64,000 nt of DNA from Acidimicrobiales bacterium (GTDB lineage Bacteria; Actinomycetota; Acidimicrobiia; Acidimicrobiales; JADJXE01): NCBI GenBank assembly GCA_016716005.1, contig JADJXE010000001.1, positions 3,440,521-3,504,520 of the forward strand, written 5' to 3'. The position numbers were made by a program, and so were the translations under genes. The notes beneath the pieces were generated by a model. It was not told the DNA's origin, did no database searches, and saw only the letters and a program-made list of their open reading frames with translations. Each line of letters starts with the position of its first letter. Positions within the stretch are counted from its first letter, which is position 1. Positions 20,070-48,923 of this stretch are shown here, piece after piece.

Positions 20070-20723
20070 GTGCACGGCGTGGAGCTGTTCGTGGTCCGGC
20101 TCTGGCTGCCCGACCGGCCCGGGGCCCTCGGGGCGGTCGCGAGCCGGATCGGCGCGGTGCGCGGCGACGTGGTCGGCATCGACATCCTCGAGCGGGGCGC
20201 GGGACGGGCCATCGACGAGCTGGTCGTCGGCCTGCCCGACCCGTCGCTGGTCGACCTGCTGGTCGCCGAGATCGGCCAGGTGGACGGGGTGGACGTCGAG
20301 GACGTGCGGCCCCAGGCCGGGCCCCTCCGGGATCACCGGCTCGAGGCGCTCGAGAGCGCGGCCCGGCTCGTCGAGACCAGCGATCCGCCCGACCTGCTCC
20401 AGTCCCTCTGCGCCGAGGTCCGCCGCGACTACGACGCCGACTGGACCGCCGTGGTCGAGGCCGGCGCCGAGCAGGTCCGCCAGTCCGCGGGCGATGCGCC
20501 GTCGGCGGCCTGGCTGGGCGCCTTCGTGCACGGGAGCCGCTCGTCGGAGGTCGTCGCGTCCGGCCAGGCCGGCCCCGAGGACGTCGTCTTCGCCGGGCTC
20601 CCGCGAGCGGGCCTCGAGCTCGTGGTCGGCCGCGACGGCCGGCCGTTCCGGGCCCGCGAGCGCCGCGAGGTGGCTGCGCTGGCGCGCATCGCCGACCGGC
20701 GCTGGGCCGAGCTGACCGGGTGA
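20070..20723 (+). CDS. ACT-domain-containing protein
   Basis: GTG 20070. FVVRLWLPDRPGALGAVASRIGAVRGDVVGIDIL is an ACT-like beta-alpha-beta start. The C-terminal ~140 aa are unassigned. Confidence 0.6.
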   Translation: MHGVELFVVRLWLPDRPGALGAVASRIGAVRGDVVGIDILERGAGRAIDELVVGLPDPSLVDLLVAEIGQVDGVDVEDVRPQAGPLRDHRLEALESAARLVETSDPPDLLQSLCAEVRRDYDADWTAVVEAGAEQVRQSAGDAPSAAWLGAFVHGSRSSEVVASGQAGPEDVVFAGLPRAGLELVVGRDGRPFRARERREVAALARIADRRWAELTG

Positions 20724-20750
20724 CGGCCCCGGCTGCGGGCCGGGCCGAGC

Positions 20751-20798
20751 GGGTGACGGGCCGACCGGGTGACGGGCCGACCGGGTGACGGGCCGGTG
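20751..20798. repeat. 16-bp tandem repeat x3 (GGGTGACGGGCCGACC)
   Basis: Units at 20751, 20767 and 20783 (the third is 14/16). The unit echoes the gene-end context ccgggtgacgg at 20716-20726. Confidence 0.85.
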
Positions 20799-45334: not shown

Positions 45335-45631
45335 GTGGTGACCGGTCCGACCGAAGGCGCCGGGTCGCCGGCACCGCCGGCCCGGGCATGGGTCGGGCCG
45401 GCGGTCGTGGCCGTCCTGGCCCGGCCCCGGCTCTGGGGCACCGCCGTCGTCGAGCTGGCACGGCTCGCGCCACGGGGCTGGTGGCGCCGAACCCCCCACC
45501 TCCCCCTGCCCGACCCGGCCTACCTGGCGTTCCGCATGCAGACCGCCTACGGGTCGACCGGCCGTCCTCCCCGTCCCGCCGACGTCGTGACCTGGCTCGG
45601 CTGGTGCCGCCAGCTGCGCGACCTGGACTGA
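45335..45631 (+). CDS. hypothetical protein
   Basis: GTG 45335 lies 6 nt after the upstream stop. 98 aa. No family recognised; supported only by position and non-repetitive sequence. Confidence 0.4.
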
Positions 45632-45650
45632 GCGCGAGGGTTCCGGCGAG

Positions 45651-46175
45651 GTGACCACCGGCCGGGCGCTCGTCCTCAACGCCACCTTCGAGGCGCTGAG
45701 CATCGTGTCGAGCCGCCGCGCCGTGTGCCTGGTCCTCGACGACAAGGCCGAGGTCCTCCATGCCTCCGACCGCCTGGTGCGCTCGGAGCGGCTGGCGATG
45801 GCGGTGCCGTCCGTGGTGCGCCTCCGCTCCTACGTGCGCGTGCCCTTCGAGCGGCGCGCCACCTTGAACCGCCGTGCGGTCTTCGCCCGCGACGGGCACC
45901 GCTGCCAGTACTGCGGGGGACCGGCCGAGAGCATCGACCACGTGGTGCCCCGGAGCCGGGGTGGCGGCCACGTCTGGGAGAACGTGGTCGCGGCCTGCCG
46001 GCCCTGCAACCTGCACAAGCGTGACCGCTCGCCCGAGGAGAGCGGGATGCGGCTGCGACGCCCACCGGCGGCCCCCCGCGGGGCGGCCTGGGTCGCGGCG
46101 GCCGTCGGCCGGGTGCCCGACCTGTGGACCCCCTACCTGGGCGCGCCGGTCGCGGGGCTCGAGCCGGTGCCGTGA
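45651..46175 (+). CDS. HNH endonuclease
   Basis: 174 aa. DGHRCQYCG...[11 protein letters not shown]...[15 protein letters not shown]. Confidence 0.85.
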
Positions 46176-46876
46176 CGCCTCCGGTCGTCGCGCGGGCCGG
46201 CGCGTGGCCGGTGGAGCGGGCTGCCGGGAGCGCGGCCGCCTTCCACGACCGACCCCTCCCGGATCCGCCGGCCCGAGCGGTCTGGGTGCTCGACGTCGAC
46301 GGTCCGGCACTCGTCCTCGGCAGCGGCCAGGACCCGGCGGTCGTCGACGCGGACGCGGCGCGTCGGGGCGGCGTGACGGTGGTGCGCCGGCGCAGCGGGG
46401 GCGGGGCCGTCCTGCTCGAACCTGGTGAGGCCCTGTGGGTCGACGTCGTGGTTCCCCCGGGTGATCCCTGCTGGGACGACGACGTCGGCCGGGCCTTCCA
46501 TTGGTTGGGCGACGCCTGGGCCGCCGCCCTCGCCGGCCTGGGGGTGGCGGCGACGGTGCACCGTGGCCCCCTGGTGCGGACCGGCTGGTCGTCGACGGTC
46601 TGCTTCGCCGGTCTGGGTTCCGGGGAGGTCACGGTCGACGGCCGCAAGCTCGTGGGGATGTCGCAGCGCCGGACGCGCCGCGGGGCCCGGTTCCAGTGCG
46701 TCGTGCCGCGGCGTTGGCGACCCGAGCGCCTCCTCGCCCTGCTGGTCGGCCCCGGCCCGGCCGGCCGGCCCGCCGAGGGGCTCCGGGCCGCCGCCGTCGG
46801 GCTCGACGATCTGCAGGGGTCGCCCACGCTGGCCGCCCTCCGGGAGGCCGTGCTCGTCGAGCTGGCCAAGCGCTGA
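46172..46876 (+). CDS. biotin/lipoate A/B protein ligase family protein (LplA/LipB-like)
   Basis: GTG 46172 overlaps the HNH stop (GTGA). [17 protein letters not shown] and [11 protein letters not shown] (candidate catalytic Lys). Confidence 0.7.
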
Positions 46877-46902
46877 CGCGGCGGGCCCCGCCCGCTCGCT
46901 CC

Positions 46903-47131
46903 GTCGGTCTTCGTCGCGCTGGCGACGTGTGGGGTGGGTCGGGCGCGCGTCGGAGGGTGGCCCGTCGGTCTTCGTCGCGCTGGCGACGTGTGGGGTGGGT
47001 CGGGCGCGCGTCGGAGGGTGGCCCGTCGGTCTTCGTCGCGCTGGCGACGTGTGGGGTGGGTCGGGCGCGCGTCGGAGGGTGGCCGGTCGGTCTTCGTCGC
47101 GCTGGCGACGTGTGGGGTGGGTCGGGCGCGA
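46903..47131. repeat. 61-bp direct tandem repeat, ~3.7 copies
   Basis: Unit gtcggtcttcgtcgcgctggcgacgtgtggggtgggtcgggcgcgcgtcggagggtggccc at 46903, 46964 (identical), 47025 (1 mismatch) and 47086 (first ~45 nt). Confidence 0.95.
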
Positions 47132-47165
47132 CGGTGGGGGTCGGTGGTGGGTCCGGGGGGAGAAA

Positions 47166-47211
47166 GTGGTTGACAGTGGGGGTATCCACCCATAGGGTGG
47201 GGCGAAGTGGG
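47166..47211 (+). promoter_or_regulatory. predicted Pmra promoter (-35 TTGACA 47170-75, -10 TAGGGT 47193-98) with flanking GTGG(G) MraZ-box-like direct repeats
   Basis: Perfect TTGACA, a 17-nt spacer, then TAGGGT (TAnnnT). GTGG(G) occurs at 47166, 47176, 47197 and 47207 (spacing 10/21/10). It lies ~70 nt upstream of the mraZ start. Confidence 0.6.
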
Positions 47212-47276
47212 GAACCGGACGGCCGGGTCGCCACGGGGTGCAGGCGAGTCCGAGGGGCTCGGGAGAGGCGTACGGG

Positions 47277-47693
47277 GTGTTCGTCGGGACCTTCGAGCAC
47301 GCGCTCGACGGCAAGGGGCGTGTGGTCCTACCGGCATCGTTCCGCGCCCGACTCGAGCACGGCGGGTACGTCACCAAGCGCCTCGATGGCTGCCTGGCGG
47401 TGTGGACGCCCGACGAGTTCGAGCGGGAGGCGCAGGAGATGCTCGAGAAGGAGAGGCGAGGTGAGATCGCCCGCAACGTCGTGCGGTCATTCTCCGCCGG
47501 CGCCGCCCCCATCCGCCCCGACGCCCAGGGCCGCATCGCCCTCCCGCAGAACCTCCGGGAGTTCGCCGGCCTCGAGCGCGACGTGGCCGTGATCGGCCAC
47601 TTCACCAGCATCGAGATCTGGGATGCCTCTCGCTGGCGCGAGGTCGACCAGGAGGGCGAGGCCCTGCTGGCCGGTGGCGCGCCGGCGGTATGA
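47277..47693 (+). CDS. mraZ: transcriptional regulator MraZ
   Basis: GTG 47277 lies 8 nt after gggagagg. VFVGTFEHALDGKGRVVLP and PDAQGRIALP are the two MraZ/SpoVT-AbrB repeats (DxxGR). Confidence 0.9.
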   Translation: MFVGTFEHALDGKGRVVLPASFRARLEHGGYVTKRLDGCLAVWTPDEFEREAQEMLEKERRGEIARNVVRSFSAGAAPIRPDAQGRIALPQNLREFAGLERDVAVIGHFTSIEIWDASRWREVDQEGEALLAGGAPAV

Positions 47694-47784
47694 GGCCACG
47701 ACGGTCGAGACCCGGAAGGAGGACGAGCAGGTCGAGCCCGAAGAGCTAGTGCCCTGGGTGCAGGGCGTCGCTCATCCGCAGTCT

Positions 47785-47871
47785 CCCGGTCGGCAAGATG
47801 GAATGCCCCTACTCCGCCCGCTTCCGTCTCGCACGATCGGGGAGAAATCCCGACGGCACCTGCCGACCGGG
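47785..47871 (+). promoter_or_regulatory. structured RNA candidate in the mraZ-rsmH spacer (possible mraW-motif-like leader)
   Basis: An 11-bp perfect stem pairs cccggtcggca (47785-95) with tgccgaccggg (47861-71). It encloses the hairpin tcgggg-agaaa-tcccga (47837-53). The 225-bp spacer is unusually long for this otherwise overlapping operon. Confidence 0.35.
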
Positions 47872-47918
47872 GGACTGCCGGTGAGCGACGCCGCACGCAC
47901 CCGGTCGCCGGGGGCACC

Positions 47919-48923
47919 GTGAGCCAGGACCTGGCTGGCGACGCCTTCTTGCACCGGCCCGTCATGGTCGAGCGAGTGGTCGAGCTGCTCGCTGCGGTGC
48001 CACCGGGCGTCGTGGTCGATGCCACCGTGGGTGGCGGGGGCCACGCCCTCGCCCTGCTCACCGCTCACCCTCACCTCCGGGTGGTGGGGCTCGACCGGGA
48101 CCCCGACGCCCTCGCGGCGGCACGGGCGACGCTCGCCCCCTTCGGTGAACGGGTCACGCTCCGCCACACCCGGTTCGACCGCCTCGGCGCAACCATGCAC
48201 GATCTCGGCGTCGACTCCCTCTCCGGTGCGCTGTTCGACCTGGGTGTCAGCTCACCGCAGCTCGACCGACCCGAGCGGGGCTTCAGCTACCGGGTCGACG
48301 GTCCGCTCGACATGCGGATGGATCCGGGGCAGCGGTTCACGGCGGCCGAGCTCGTGAACGGGGCGCCCGTGGCCGAGCTCGCCCGCATCCTTCGGACGTA
48401 CGGCGACGAGCGCTTCGGGGCCAGGATCGCCCGGGCCATCGTGGCCGCTCGCCCGCTGCACACCACCACCGAGCTGGCCCGGGTGGTGGTGGACGCCATC
48501 CCGGCGCCGGCCCGGCGGCGCGGCGGCCACCCGGCCACGCGCACCTTCCAGGCGCTGCGGATCGCCGTCAACGAGGAGCTCGACGTGCTGCCGGCGGCGC
48601 TCGACCAGGCCCTCGACCTGCTCGGTCCCGGCGGGCGATGCCTCGTTCTCGCCTACCACTCGGGTGAGGACCGCATCGTGAAGGAGAGGTTCCGGCGGGC
48701 GGCCACGGGGGGATGCGCCTGCCCGCCCCGCCTGCCGTGTAGGTGTGGTGCGGTGCCGACGGTCCGCTTGCTGCGTGCCGGGGCGTGGCGGCCCTCGCCC
48801 GAGGAGCTGGCCGCCAACCCCCGTGCGTCGAGCGCGCGCCTCCGCGCCGTCGAGCGTCTGCGGCCGGTTCCGGGGCCGGGGCCCGGGCCGGGGCCCGGCC
48901 CACAGGGCGACGAGGCGGCATGA
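47919..48923 (+). CDS. rsmH: 16S rRNA (cytosine1402-N4)-methyltransferase
   Basis: 334 aa. HRPVM, DATVGGGGHA, DLGVSSPQLD and SGEDRIVK. The C-terminal tail has a PGPGPGPGPGP run. Confidence 0.95.
   Translation: MSQDLAGDAFLHRPVMVERVVELLAAVPPGVVVDATVGGGGHALALLTAHPHLRVVGLDRDPDALAAARATLAPFGERVTLRHTRFDRLGATMHDLGVDSLSGALFDLGVSSPQLDRPERGFSYRVDGPLDMRMDPGQRFTAAELVNGAPVAELARILRTYGDERFGARIARAIVAARPLHTTTELARVVVDAIPAPARRRGGHPATRTFQALRIAVNEELDVLPAALDQALDLLGPGGRCLVLAYHSGEDRIVKERFRRAATGGCACPPRLPCRCGAVPTVRLLRAGAWRPSPEELAANPRASSARLRAVERLRPVPGPGPGPGPGPQGDEAA

What the first reader, a model, noticed from the sequence alone, without database searches (positions are those of the whole stretch)
46903..47131. Near-perfect 61-bp tandem repeat (~3.7 copies) abutting the dcw (mraZ) promoter
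The 61-bp unit starts at 46903, 46964, 47025 and 47086. Copies 1 and 2 are identical, copy 3 differs at one base, and copy 4 is truncated after ~45 nt. That level of identity in a non-coding tract implies recent expansion or active maintenance.

The array fills the gap between the LplA-like gene stop (46876) and the predicted Pmra promoter (47170). Each unit carries G-tracts (GTGGGG, GTGGG, GGTGG) resembling the GTGGG-type direct repeats that MraZ binds at its own promoter in E. coli.

Hypothesis: this is an amplified operator or decoy array, or a copy-number-variable spacer, that tunes expression of the whole division/cell-wall operon. I know of no description of such an array upstream of mraZ.
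Basis: partly seen in the sequence, partly recalled or inferred. Interest (0 to 1): 0.6.

Follow-up and report, generated by a model that had tools for sequence, protein, structure and literature searches.

The report
Young tandem duplication upstream of mraZ promoter
A 61-base stretch just upstream of the cell-division (mraZ/dcw) promoter of an uncultured Acidimicrobiales bacterium has recently been copied head-to-tail to almost four copies; it is real, but it looks like an ordinary local minisatellite made from native promoter-upstream DNA, not a purpose-built regulator-binding array.

Summary
Window 46901-47130 holds three identical 61-bp units plus a 47-nt fourth copy with one C>G change at 47085. 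An independent k=31 assembly breaks exactly 30 nt into each side of the array, so a unit-to-unit junction exists in the reads.

The window is an Acidimicrobiales MAG with 75% GC. The array lies between an LplA-like gene (stop 46876) and a conserved promoter: TTGACA 47170-75, N17, TAGGGT 47193-98.

In 66 of 84 Acidimicrobiia loci this promoter is embedded in GTGG boxes spaced 10, 20 or 30 bp apart, the canonical MraZ operator. In the window that phased operator is 47134-47212, just outside the array. Inside the units the GTGG motifs sit 5, 23 and 33 bp apart, and there is no GTGG-N6-GTGG pair.

The sister species (86% MraZ identity) has a single-copy region colinear with one unit-equivalent. 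The array is therefore an in-situ gain of three units, not an inserted or dispersed element. Other Acidimicrobiia carry unrelated tandem arrays upstream of mraZ, mostly without GTGG.

Best reading: a young, probably near-neutral VNTR that happens to multiply isolated MraZ-like motifs. An auxiliary operator or decoy role remains possible (about 0.15-0.2) and untested.

The parts
46172..46876 (+). LplA/LipB-like lipoate-protein ligase family gene. The start is probably the GTG at 46172, overlapping the HNH gene's stop codon.
   Evidence: Pfam LplA-B_cat E=4.8e-16. The 234-aa product starting at 46172 is the one on record in Logan contig L088. HNH - LplA-like - mraZ synteny is seen in L002, L006 and L007.
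46901..46961 (.). Tandem unit 1 (61 bp): CCGTCGGTCTTCGTCGCGCTGGCGACGTGTGGGGTGGGTCGGGCGCGCGTCGGAGGGTGGC
46962..47022 (.). Tandem unit 2, identical to unit 1
47023..47083 (.). Tandem unit 3, identical to unit 1
47084..47130 (.). Unit 4: the first 47 nt of the unit, with C>G at 47085. This is the copy that corresponds to the ancestral single-copy sequence of the sister species. The next ~14 nt (47131-47144) look like a diverged unit tail.
47134..47212 (+). Phased GTGG-box zone, the predicted MraZ operator. Boxes lie at 47134, 47144, (47147), 47166, 47176, 47197 and 47207, which is a 10-11-bp register across the -35 and -10 elements.
   Evidence: Three GTGG-N6-GTGG pairs occur here. The clade-wide footprint has GTGG-GTGG distance peaks at 10, 20 and 30 bp.
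47170..47198 (+). Predicted dcw promoter Pmra: -35 TTGACA (47170-75), 17-nt spacer, -10 TAGGGT (47193-98)
   Evidence: TTGAC-N16-19-TAnnnT is found in the same place in 66 of 84 Acidimicrobiia loci, and is nearly identical in the sister species L002. It was not detected by the E. coli-type scan.
47277..47693 (+). mraZ (138 aa, GTG start, RBS GGGAGAGG), with DNA-contact residues K13, R15 and R86 conserved
   Evidence: Pfam MraZ E=3.7e-31. The exact product is on record. Invariant columns are shown.

Best explanation
The array is a young, lineage-specific minisatellite (VNTR-type tandem duplication). A 61-bp piece of the native G-rich DNA just upstream of the MraZ operator and dcw promoter was amplified in place. 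This added three extra units (183 bp) to what was a single-copy sequence in the common ancestor with the sister species.

Shown here: the copies are head-to-tail and three are identical. The region is non-coding. One copy-equivalent is ancestral. The unit is not found anywhere else that could be searched.

Inferred: the mechanism is replication slippage or unequal recombination between copies, with homogenisation of the inner copies and decay of the outer edge. Copy number probably varies between strains.

The GTGGG motifs are in the unit because the amplified segment came from the box-rich operator-distal zone. They are not arranged as a canonical operator. The most likely effect on dcw expression is small: it pushes upstream DNA 183 bp away and adds 9 isolated low-affinity GTGG sites.
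For: (1) TRF gives period 61, 3.8 copies, 99%, with 3 exact copies and 0 expected by chance.
(2) The region is non-coding. The period is 61 = 1 mod 3, and codon-position GC periodicity is absent over 46898-47240 while neighbouring genes have GC3 of 0.89-0.96.
(3) The sister species L002 (86% MraZ identity) has a single-copy region. It is colinear and equal in length (109 vs 110 nt) with the window's intergenic region once the array is collapsed to one copy-equivalent. The alignment score is +16, against -56 with zero copies and -70 with two. Identity over the copy is 31/47 columns, including a shared GTGTGGGG.
(4) No other copy exists in the 64-kb window or in 88 related loci. There is no match in plasmids or phages or in the genome and metagenome collections.
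(5) The canonical box phasing is absent from the units but present right next to them.
(6) Unrelated tandem arrays occur upstream of mraZ in roughly 10 other Acidimicrobiia loci. L046's unit includes the upstream gene's stop-codon region. A second small array (16 nt, 20714-20795) that also starts at a gene's stop codon lies in this same window. Local tandem duplication of arbitrary intergenic DNA is therefore common in these genomes.
(7) There is no RNA-family hit and no folding signal on the + strand (z=-0.01).
Against: The unit multiplies the very motif MraZ recognises, in the operator's orientation, 39 nt from the -35 element. This makes the locus the densest GTGGG region of the window, with 12 in 300 nt, all on one strand. 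The 61-bp period is close to 6 x 10 bp. A crude test suggested about 3-fold more tandem arrays upstream of mraZ than in other non-coding-like DNA of the same loci (p=0.006), which could hint at selection. That test has an unreliable non-coding mask, includes the ascertained window, and includes related genomes. Neutrality itself was not tested. Copy-number variation could not be examined because only one genome and one read set carry this sequence.
Confidence: 0.6

Rival explanations
1. The array is an auxiliary MraZ-binding array, acting as an amplified distal operator or as a decoy/sink. The 11 GTGG motifs within the array recruit MraZ oligomers next to the core operator. This would either strengthen cooperative repression of Pmra or titrate MraZ, and array copy number would tune dcw expression.
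For: All GTGGG motifs are on the operator strand, and the motif density is the highest in the window. The unit is homologous to a stretch that in the sister species carries an in-phase box pair at -67/-57 relative to the -35 element. Many Acidimicrobiia extend the box series upstream of the -35 element. MraZ K13, R15 and R86 are conserved. MraZ octamers can engage a single box and still bind boxes with longer spacers at high concentration (PMC12957436).
Against: No GTGG-N6-GTGG pair or triple occurs inside the units. Spacings are 5, 23 and 33 bp, whereas the clade's operators peak sharply at 10, 20 and 30 bp. GTGG alone is common, with 1121 sites in the 64-kb window. Analogous arrays in other lineages lack GTGG. 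Perfect identity points to recency, not conservation. The sister species lacks the array.
Confidence: 0.18
2. The unit is a dispersed repetitive element (REP/BIME- or MIRU-like) that occurs at many loci of this genome and here happens to be in tandem.
For: Each unit has a small palindrome, CGTCGC-GCTG-GCGACG. MIRU-type elements in Actinobacteria are 40-100-bp intergenic tandem repeats (own knowledge). Only 64 kb of a 3.63-Mb genome could be inspected.
Against: No second locus exists in the window or the related loci, and the collections give nothing. One copy-equivalent is ancestral at this site in the sister species. The hairpin is weak and folding is not better than shuffles.
Confidence: 0.07
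3. The array is a structure-forming DNA or RNA element. It could be tandem G-quadruplex-prone units on the non-template strand that modulate transcription into or around Pmra, or a repeated palindromic site for another regulator.
For: Each unit has four G-tracts (GGGG-T-GGG-TC-GGG-N11-GGG) with a G4Hunter score of about 1.5. A G4 in the S. aureus mraZ promoter has been reported to affect expression (PMC11796246). The minus-strand RNA fold has z=-2.6.
Against: The motif needs an 11-nt loop, so it fails the canonical definition with loops of 7 nt or fewer. The window has 114 regions with |G4Hunter| of 1.5 or more, so this is unexceptional at 75% GC. The palindrome is absent from the sister species and is not enriched elsewhere.
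Confidence: 0.05
4. The array is an assembly artefact and the true locus has a single copy.
For: Tandem repeats are error-prone in assemblies. The copy number rests on one MAG.
Against: Independent k=31 Logan contigs break exactly k-1 nt into both edges of the array. That requires the unit-to-unit junction k-mers to be present in the reads. The source contig is 3.63 Mb, which suggests long reads (inference).
Confidence: 0.03

Closest known systems
Bacterial intergenic VNTR / minisatellite loci (e.g. MIRU-VNTR loci of Mycobacterium tuberculosis)
   Same: It consists of head-to-tail copies of a 40-100-bp unit in an intergenic region of an actinobacterium. Inner copies are near-identical and the edge copy is degenerate. 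Presumably it is generated and resized by slippage or unequal recombination.
   Different: There is no evidence that the unit is interspersed at other loci. No small ORFs or stop/start overlaps of the MIRU type are present. The unit is demonstrably derived from the local ancestral sequence. Copy-number polymorphism has not been shown.
MraZ operator (MraZ boxes / MraZ-binding repeats) of E. coli, B. subtilis and Mycoplasma
   Same: It uses the same core motif GTG(G/T), in the same orientation, immediately upstream of mraZ. The genuine phased operator lies directly beside the array at 47134-47212.
   Different: Known operators are 3-4 boxes at a strict 10-bp period overlapping the promoter or TSS (PMC12957436; bioRxiv 10.1101/2022.02.09.479790). 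The array's boxes are 5, 23 and 33 bp apart, and the array ends 39 bp upstream of the -35 element and spans 230 bp.
Promoter-proximal tandem repeats that tune expression by copy number (phase-variable or contingency-locus promoters, e.g. in Neisseria and Haemophilus)
   Same: It is a tandem repeat tract adjacent to a promoter whose length could in principle alter regulator binding or spacing.
   Different: Those tracts are usually 1-10-bp units located between or overlapping the -35 and -10 elements. Here the units are 61 bp and lie wholly upstream of the promoter, and no variation or phenotype is known.

Membership tests
Intergenic VNTR / minisatellite | Head-to-tail copies of a 10-100-bp unit with high identity | tested here: met
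   Period 61, 3.8 copies, 99%; 3 exact copies
Intergenic VNTR / minisatellite | Non-coding location | tested here: met
   The array lies between the stop codon at 46876 and the mraZ start at 47277. The period is not a multiple of 3, and there is no codon-position GC periodicity over 46898-47240.
Intergenic VNTR / minisatellite | Copy number differs between related genomes | tested here: inconclusive
   The sister species has one copy-equivalent, so copies were gained. No second strain of the same species was available.
MraZ operator (MraZ boxes) | Three or more direct GTG(G/T) boxes at a 10-bp period (6-nt spacers) | tested here: not met
   There is no GTGG-N6-GTGG inside 46901-47130, while three such pairs lie at 47134-47210. 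Spacings within the units are 5, 23 and 33 bp, against clade peaks at 10, 20 and 30 bp.
MraZ operator (MraZ boxes) | Overlaps the dcw promoter or TSS | tested here: not met
   The array ends at 47130 and the -35 element starts at 47170.
MraZ operator (MraZ boxes) | Bound by MraZ | not testable with these tools
   This needs EMSA or ChIP. MraZ DNA-contact residues K13, R15 and R86 are conserved.
Dispersed repeats (REP/BIME, MIRU) | Many copies at unrelated loci of the genome | tested here: inconclusive
   None were found in the 64-kb window or in 88 loci. The source genome is absent from the searchable collections, so the other 3.57 Mb are untested.
Dispersed repeats (REP/BIME, MIRU) | Stable imperfect palindrome or hairpin | tested here: not met
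   There is only a 6-bp stem. Unit DNA folds give z=-0.7 and -1.5, and the + strand RNA fold of the array gives z=-0.01.
CRISPR array | Short repeats separated by unique spacers | tested here: not met
   The whole 61-bp period is identical and there are no spacers.
Promoter G-quadruplex element | Four G3+ tracts with loops of 7 nt or fewer, or an outstanding G4Hunter score | tested here: not met
   The canonical motif is absent and an 11-nt loop is needed. The G4Hunter score of about 1.5 is shared by 114 regions of the window.
Known RNA families (Rfam 15) | Covariance-model match | tested here: not met
   There is no relevant hit at E<=1 in 45500-48500.

The most novel reading that the evidence does not exclude
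The amplified units act as a copy-number-tunable auxiliary MraZ landing pad or sink beside the core operator. Expansion and contraction of a 61-bp minisatellite would then set the repression level of the whole division/cell-wall operon. The recurrent but sequence-unrelated arrays upstream of mraZ in other Acidimicrobiia would reflect selection for variable spacing or occupancy at this promoter.
Probability: 0.12. Interest if true: 0.6.

Novelty: new member of a known kind. Interest (0 to 1): 0.27.

Why it matters
If it is neutral, the array is just a handy strain-typing marker next to a conserved operon, and an example of how intergenic minisatellites arise from local sequence in high-GC Actinobacteria.

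If the units do bind MraZ, it would be the first case of operator-motif amplification by a VNTR at the master promoter of cell division. That would give heritable but reversible tuning of dcw expression.

A by-product of this check has some independent value. The MraZ operator of Acidimicrobiia is footprinted across 66 genomes as GTGG boxes at a 10-bp period wrapped around a TTGAC-N17-TAnnnT promoter.

Tried and rejected
- Exact 22-mer of the unit in genome contigs and metagenome contigs: 0 hits, so the source genome is not in these collections.
- A clade-specific promoter pattern in metagenome contigs, intended to fetch closer relatives: 0 hits.
- blastn of the intergenic region against plasmids and phages: no match.
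- Rfam at E<=1: only a spurious miRNA hit elsewhere.
- The E. coli-type promoter/terminator scan found nothing. The promoter was instead defined by clade conservation.
- RNA and DNA folding of the array and unit: not better than shuffles on the + strand, and weak on the - strand.
- Coding reading: rejected, because the 61-nt period rotates the frame in every unit and there is no GC3 signal.
- CRISPR and iteron readings: rejected on anatomy.
- The first greedy ORF caller for a non-coding control was too crude, giving 67% coding, and was replaced by a GC-phase mask. The resulting enrichment (3x, p=0.006) is not trusted. The mask over-calls non-coding DNA in lower-GC genomes, the window is ascertained, and L064, L067 and L074 are related.
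- The unit alone against the L002 upstream region is not significant (p about 0.18-0.2). Homology rests on the colinear, equal-length context.

Full report
**Observation**

Reading 46500-47700 and running Tandem Repeats Finder on the whole window confirm an array at 46901-47130. It has period 61, 3.8 copies, 99% matches and score 453, far above any other array in the 64 kb. The 61-mer CCGTCGGTCTTCGTCGCGCTGGCGACGTGTGGGGTGGGTCGGGCGCGCGTCGGAGGGTGGC matches exactly at 46901, 46962 and 47023, with 0 matches in 100 shuffles. The fourth copy (47084-47130) is 47 nt long with a single C>G change at 47085.

**Context**

The window is 75% GC. Its MraZ is identical to a protein from an NCBI 'MAG: Acidimicrobiales bacterium' on a 3.63-Mb contig.

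Gene order is as follows:
- HNH endonuclease, 45651-46175
- LplA/LipB-like gene, 46172-46876
- the array
- mraZ, 47277-47693 (GTG start)
- rsmH, 47919-48923
- the rest of the dcw cluster

**Is it an artefact?**

Two Logan contigs from run SRR11674018 are identical to the window. L088 comes in from the left and stops after the first 30 nt of unit 1. L001 starts 30 nt before the first base that follows the partial fourth copy. In a k=31 de Bruijn graph that is what happens when the repeat-internal 30-mers have two predecessors or successors, meaning the unit-to-unit junction is in the reads. At least two copies are therefore real. The exact number rests on the MAG assembly.

**The promoter and the true operator**

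I collected 80 Acidimicrobiia mraZ loci from GTDB representative genomes, plus L002, L006 and L007 from protein look-ups. In 66 of 84 loci a TTGAC-N16-19-TAnnnT promoter lies about 70-230 nt upstream of mraZ, embedded in GTGG motifs. Across these loci the GTGG-to-GTGG distances peak sharply at 10 (113 pairs), 20 (81) and 30 (69), against a background of about 5.

This is the architecture established experimentally for MraZ:
- GTG(G/T) boxes with 6-nt spacers, four boxes bound cooperatively through K13, R15 and R86 (PMC12957436).
- Three GTGG[A/T]G repeats with 4-nt spacers in B. subtilis (bioRxiv 10.1101/2022.02.09.479790).

The window's MraZ keeps K13, R15 and R86.

In the window the promoter is TTGACA (47170-75), N17, TAGGGT (47193-98). 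The phased boxes are at 47134, 47144, 47166, 47176, 47197 and 47207. All three GTGG-N6-GTGG pairs of this neighbourhood lie in 47134-47210. The operator therefore starts 4 nt after the array ends.

**Do the units look like operators?**

They carry the right motif on the right strand, with GTGGGG, GTGGG and GTGG at unit positions 29, 34 and 57. This makes the locus the densest GTGGG region of the window, with 12 in 300 nt and none on the other strand. The spacings, however, are 5, 23, 28, 33 and 38 bp. No 10-bp pair or triple occurs inside the array. GTGG alone occurs 1121 times in the window. The defining architecture of an MraZ operator is thus tested and not met for the array.

**Where did the unit come from?**

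The closest relative (MraZ 86% identical; L002-L005) has a nearly identical promoter and a G-rich upstream region, with boxes at -67, -57, -36, -26, -4, +6, +27 and +37 relative to the -35 element. It has no 61-bp array.

Aligning its upstream region with versions of the window's intergenic region gives the following:

| Window version | Alignment score |
|---|---|
| Array collapsed to the 47-nt copy | +16 |
| All copies removed | -56 |
| One extra unit kept | -70 |

- In the collapsed version the lengths are 110 vs 109 nt.
- Identity over the copy is 31/47, including a shared GTGTGGGG.

One copy-equivalent is therefore ancestral, and the window's lineage gained three units (183 bp) in place. 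The unit's 14-nt tail and the sequence that follows the fourth copy both align to the same L002 stretch. The 'truncated' copy is thus better described as the original copy whose outer end has diverged.

No other copy of the unit exists in the window or in 88 related loci, by blastn with word size 7 and by nhmmer. Nothing similar is in the plasmid or phage collections. The rest of the source genome could not be searched.

**Other readings**

- Rfam gives nothing.
- The + strand RNA folds no better than shuffles (z=-0.01), the - strand weakly better (z=-2.6), and unit DNA hairpins are unremarkable.
- A G-quadruplex motif exists only with an 11-nt loop. Its G4Hunter score of about 1.5 is shared by 114 regions of this GC-rich window. 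A G4 at the S. aureus mraZ promoter has been reported (PMC11796246).
- The small palindrome in each unit is not found elsewhere and is absent from the sister species.
- Coding is excluded by the 61-nt period and the lack of GC3 periodicity.

**Tandem arrays upstream of mraZ in other lineages**

TRF on the related loci shows unrelated arrays within 600 nt upstream of mraZ:
- L046: 55 nt x 4.3
- L082: 56 nt x 3.3
- L080: 89 nt x 2.1
- L063: 64 nt x 2.0, downstream of the promoter
- L054: 11 nt x 10.6
- L064, L067, L074: 17-20 nt units
- L087: 18 nt x 3
- L075: 24 nt x 2.0
- L006: about 73 nt x 2, seen by eye

Apart from L046 they lack GTGG. L046's unit contains the last ~25 nt and the stop codon of the upstream gene, so it is a plain local duplication. 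The same is true of a second small array in this very window (16-nt unit, 20714-20795), which begins at a gene's stop codon.

A rough comparison gave 11 arrays in 31 kb upstream of mraZ against 11 in 101 kb of other non-coding-like DNA (p=0.006). The mask is crude, the window itself is ascertained, and some genomes are related, so I do not regard enrichment as established.

**Conclusion**

The feature is real and young. It is best explained as a VNTR-type in-situ amplification of native DNA from the distal edge of the MraZ-box zone. It multiplies isolated MraZ-like motifs but does not reproduce operator architecture, and comparable arrays of unrelated sequence arise at this position in other lineages. 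A modulatory role through MraZ occupancy, spacing or DNA structure is not excluded and would need binding and reporter assays. The finding is a new member of a known kind, with modest interest.

Noticed in passing
window 47134-47212; loci L002, L006-L087 around the TTGAC promoter: Across 66 of 84 Acidimicrobiia genomes the dcw promoter (TTGAC-N16-19-TAnnnT) is wrapped in 4-8 GTGG boxes at a strict 10-bp period. A typical form is GTGG-TTGACn-GTGGGGGA-GTGGGGCGTAnn-GTGGCGCGAA-GTGG. Some lineages (L034-36, L040, L056, L059, L002) extend the series 3-5 boxes upstream of the -35 element. This is a clean phylogenetic footprint of the MraZ operator in an uncultured class.
   Followed up: partly
L006 5715-5845 (GCA_004366205.1, SIRW01000103.1): Between the LplA-like gene and mraZ there are two copies, about 73 nt apart, of an element with a long inverted repeat (CTTTCCGGA...CGTATGCGACGTCGACGG TCCGGAAAG). 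It is unrelated to the window's unit and its nature is unknown.
   Followed up: no
L046 1937-2171: A 55-nt x 4.3 tandem array upstream of mraZ whose unit includes the final ~25 nt and TGA stop codon of the upstream gene. The gene's 3' end and stop codon are therefore reiterated downstream.
   Followed up: partly
window 20714-20795: A second non-coding tandem array in the window has a 16-nt unit GACCGGGTGACGGGCC in about 5 copies, the last three exact. It starts at the stop codon of the gene ending at 20723 and lies between convergent ORFs.
   Followed up: partly
window 45651-46876; L002, L006, L007: An HNH-endonuclease gene overlapping an LplA/LipB-like gene is conserved upstream of mraZ in several Acidimicrobiia. 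The space between this pair and mraZ is a variable slot: empty in the window and L006, an MFS transporter plus a 402-aa unknown protein in L002, and sigma/anti-sigma plus CopC/CopD genes in L007.
   Followed up: no
window 47694-47918: The mraZ-rsmH spacer is an unusually long 225 nt and is also about 225-250 nt in relatives (L001, L002, L006, L007). L007 and L013 have short tandem repeats there. There is no Rfam hit.
   Followed up: no
L063 2324-2453: A 64-nt x 2.0 (98%) tandem duplication lies downstream of the predicted promoter, inside the mraZ 5' leader of another Acidimicrobiia MAG.
   Followed up: no
window 48862-48898: A GGCCGG/GGCCGGGGCCCG repeat at the 3' end of rsmH encodes a (PG)n tail (…PVPGPGPGPGPGPQ…).
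   Followed up: no
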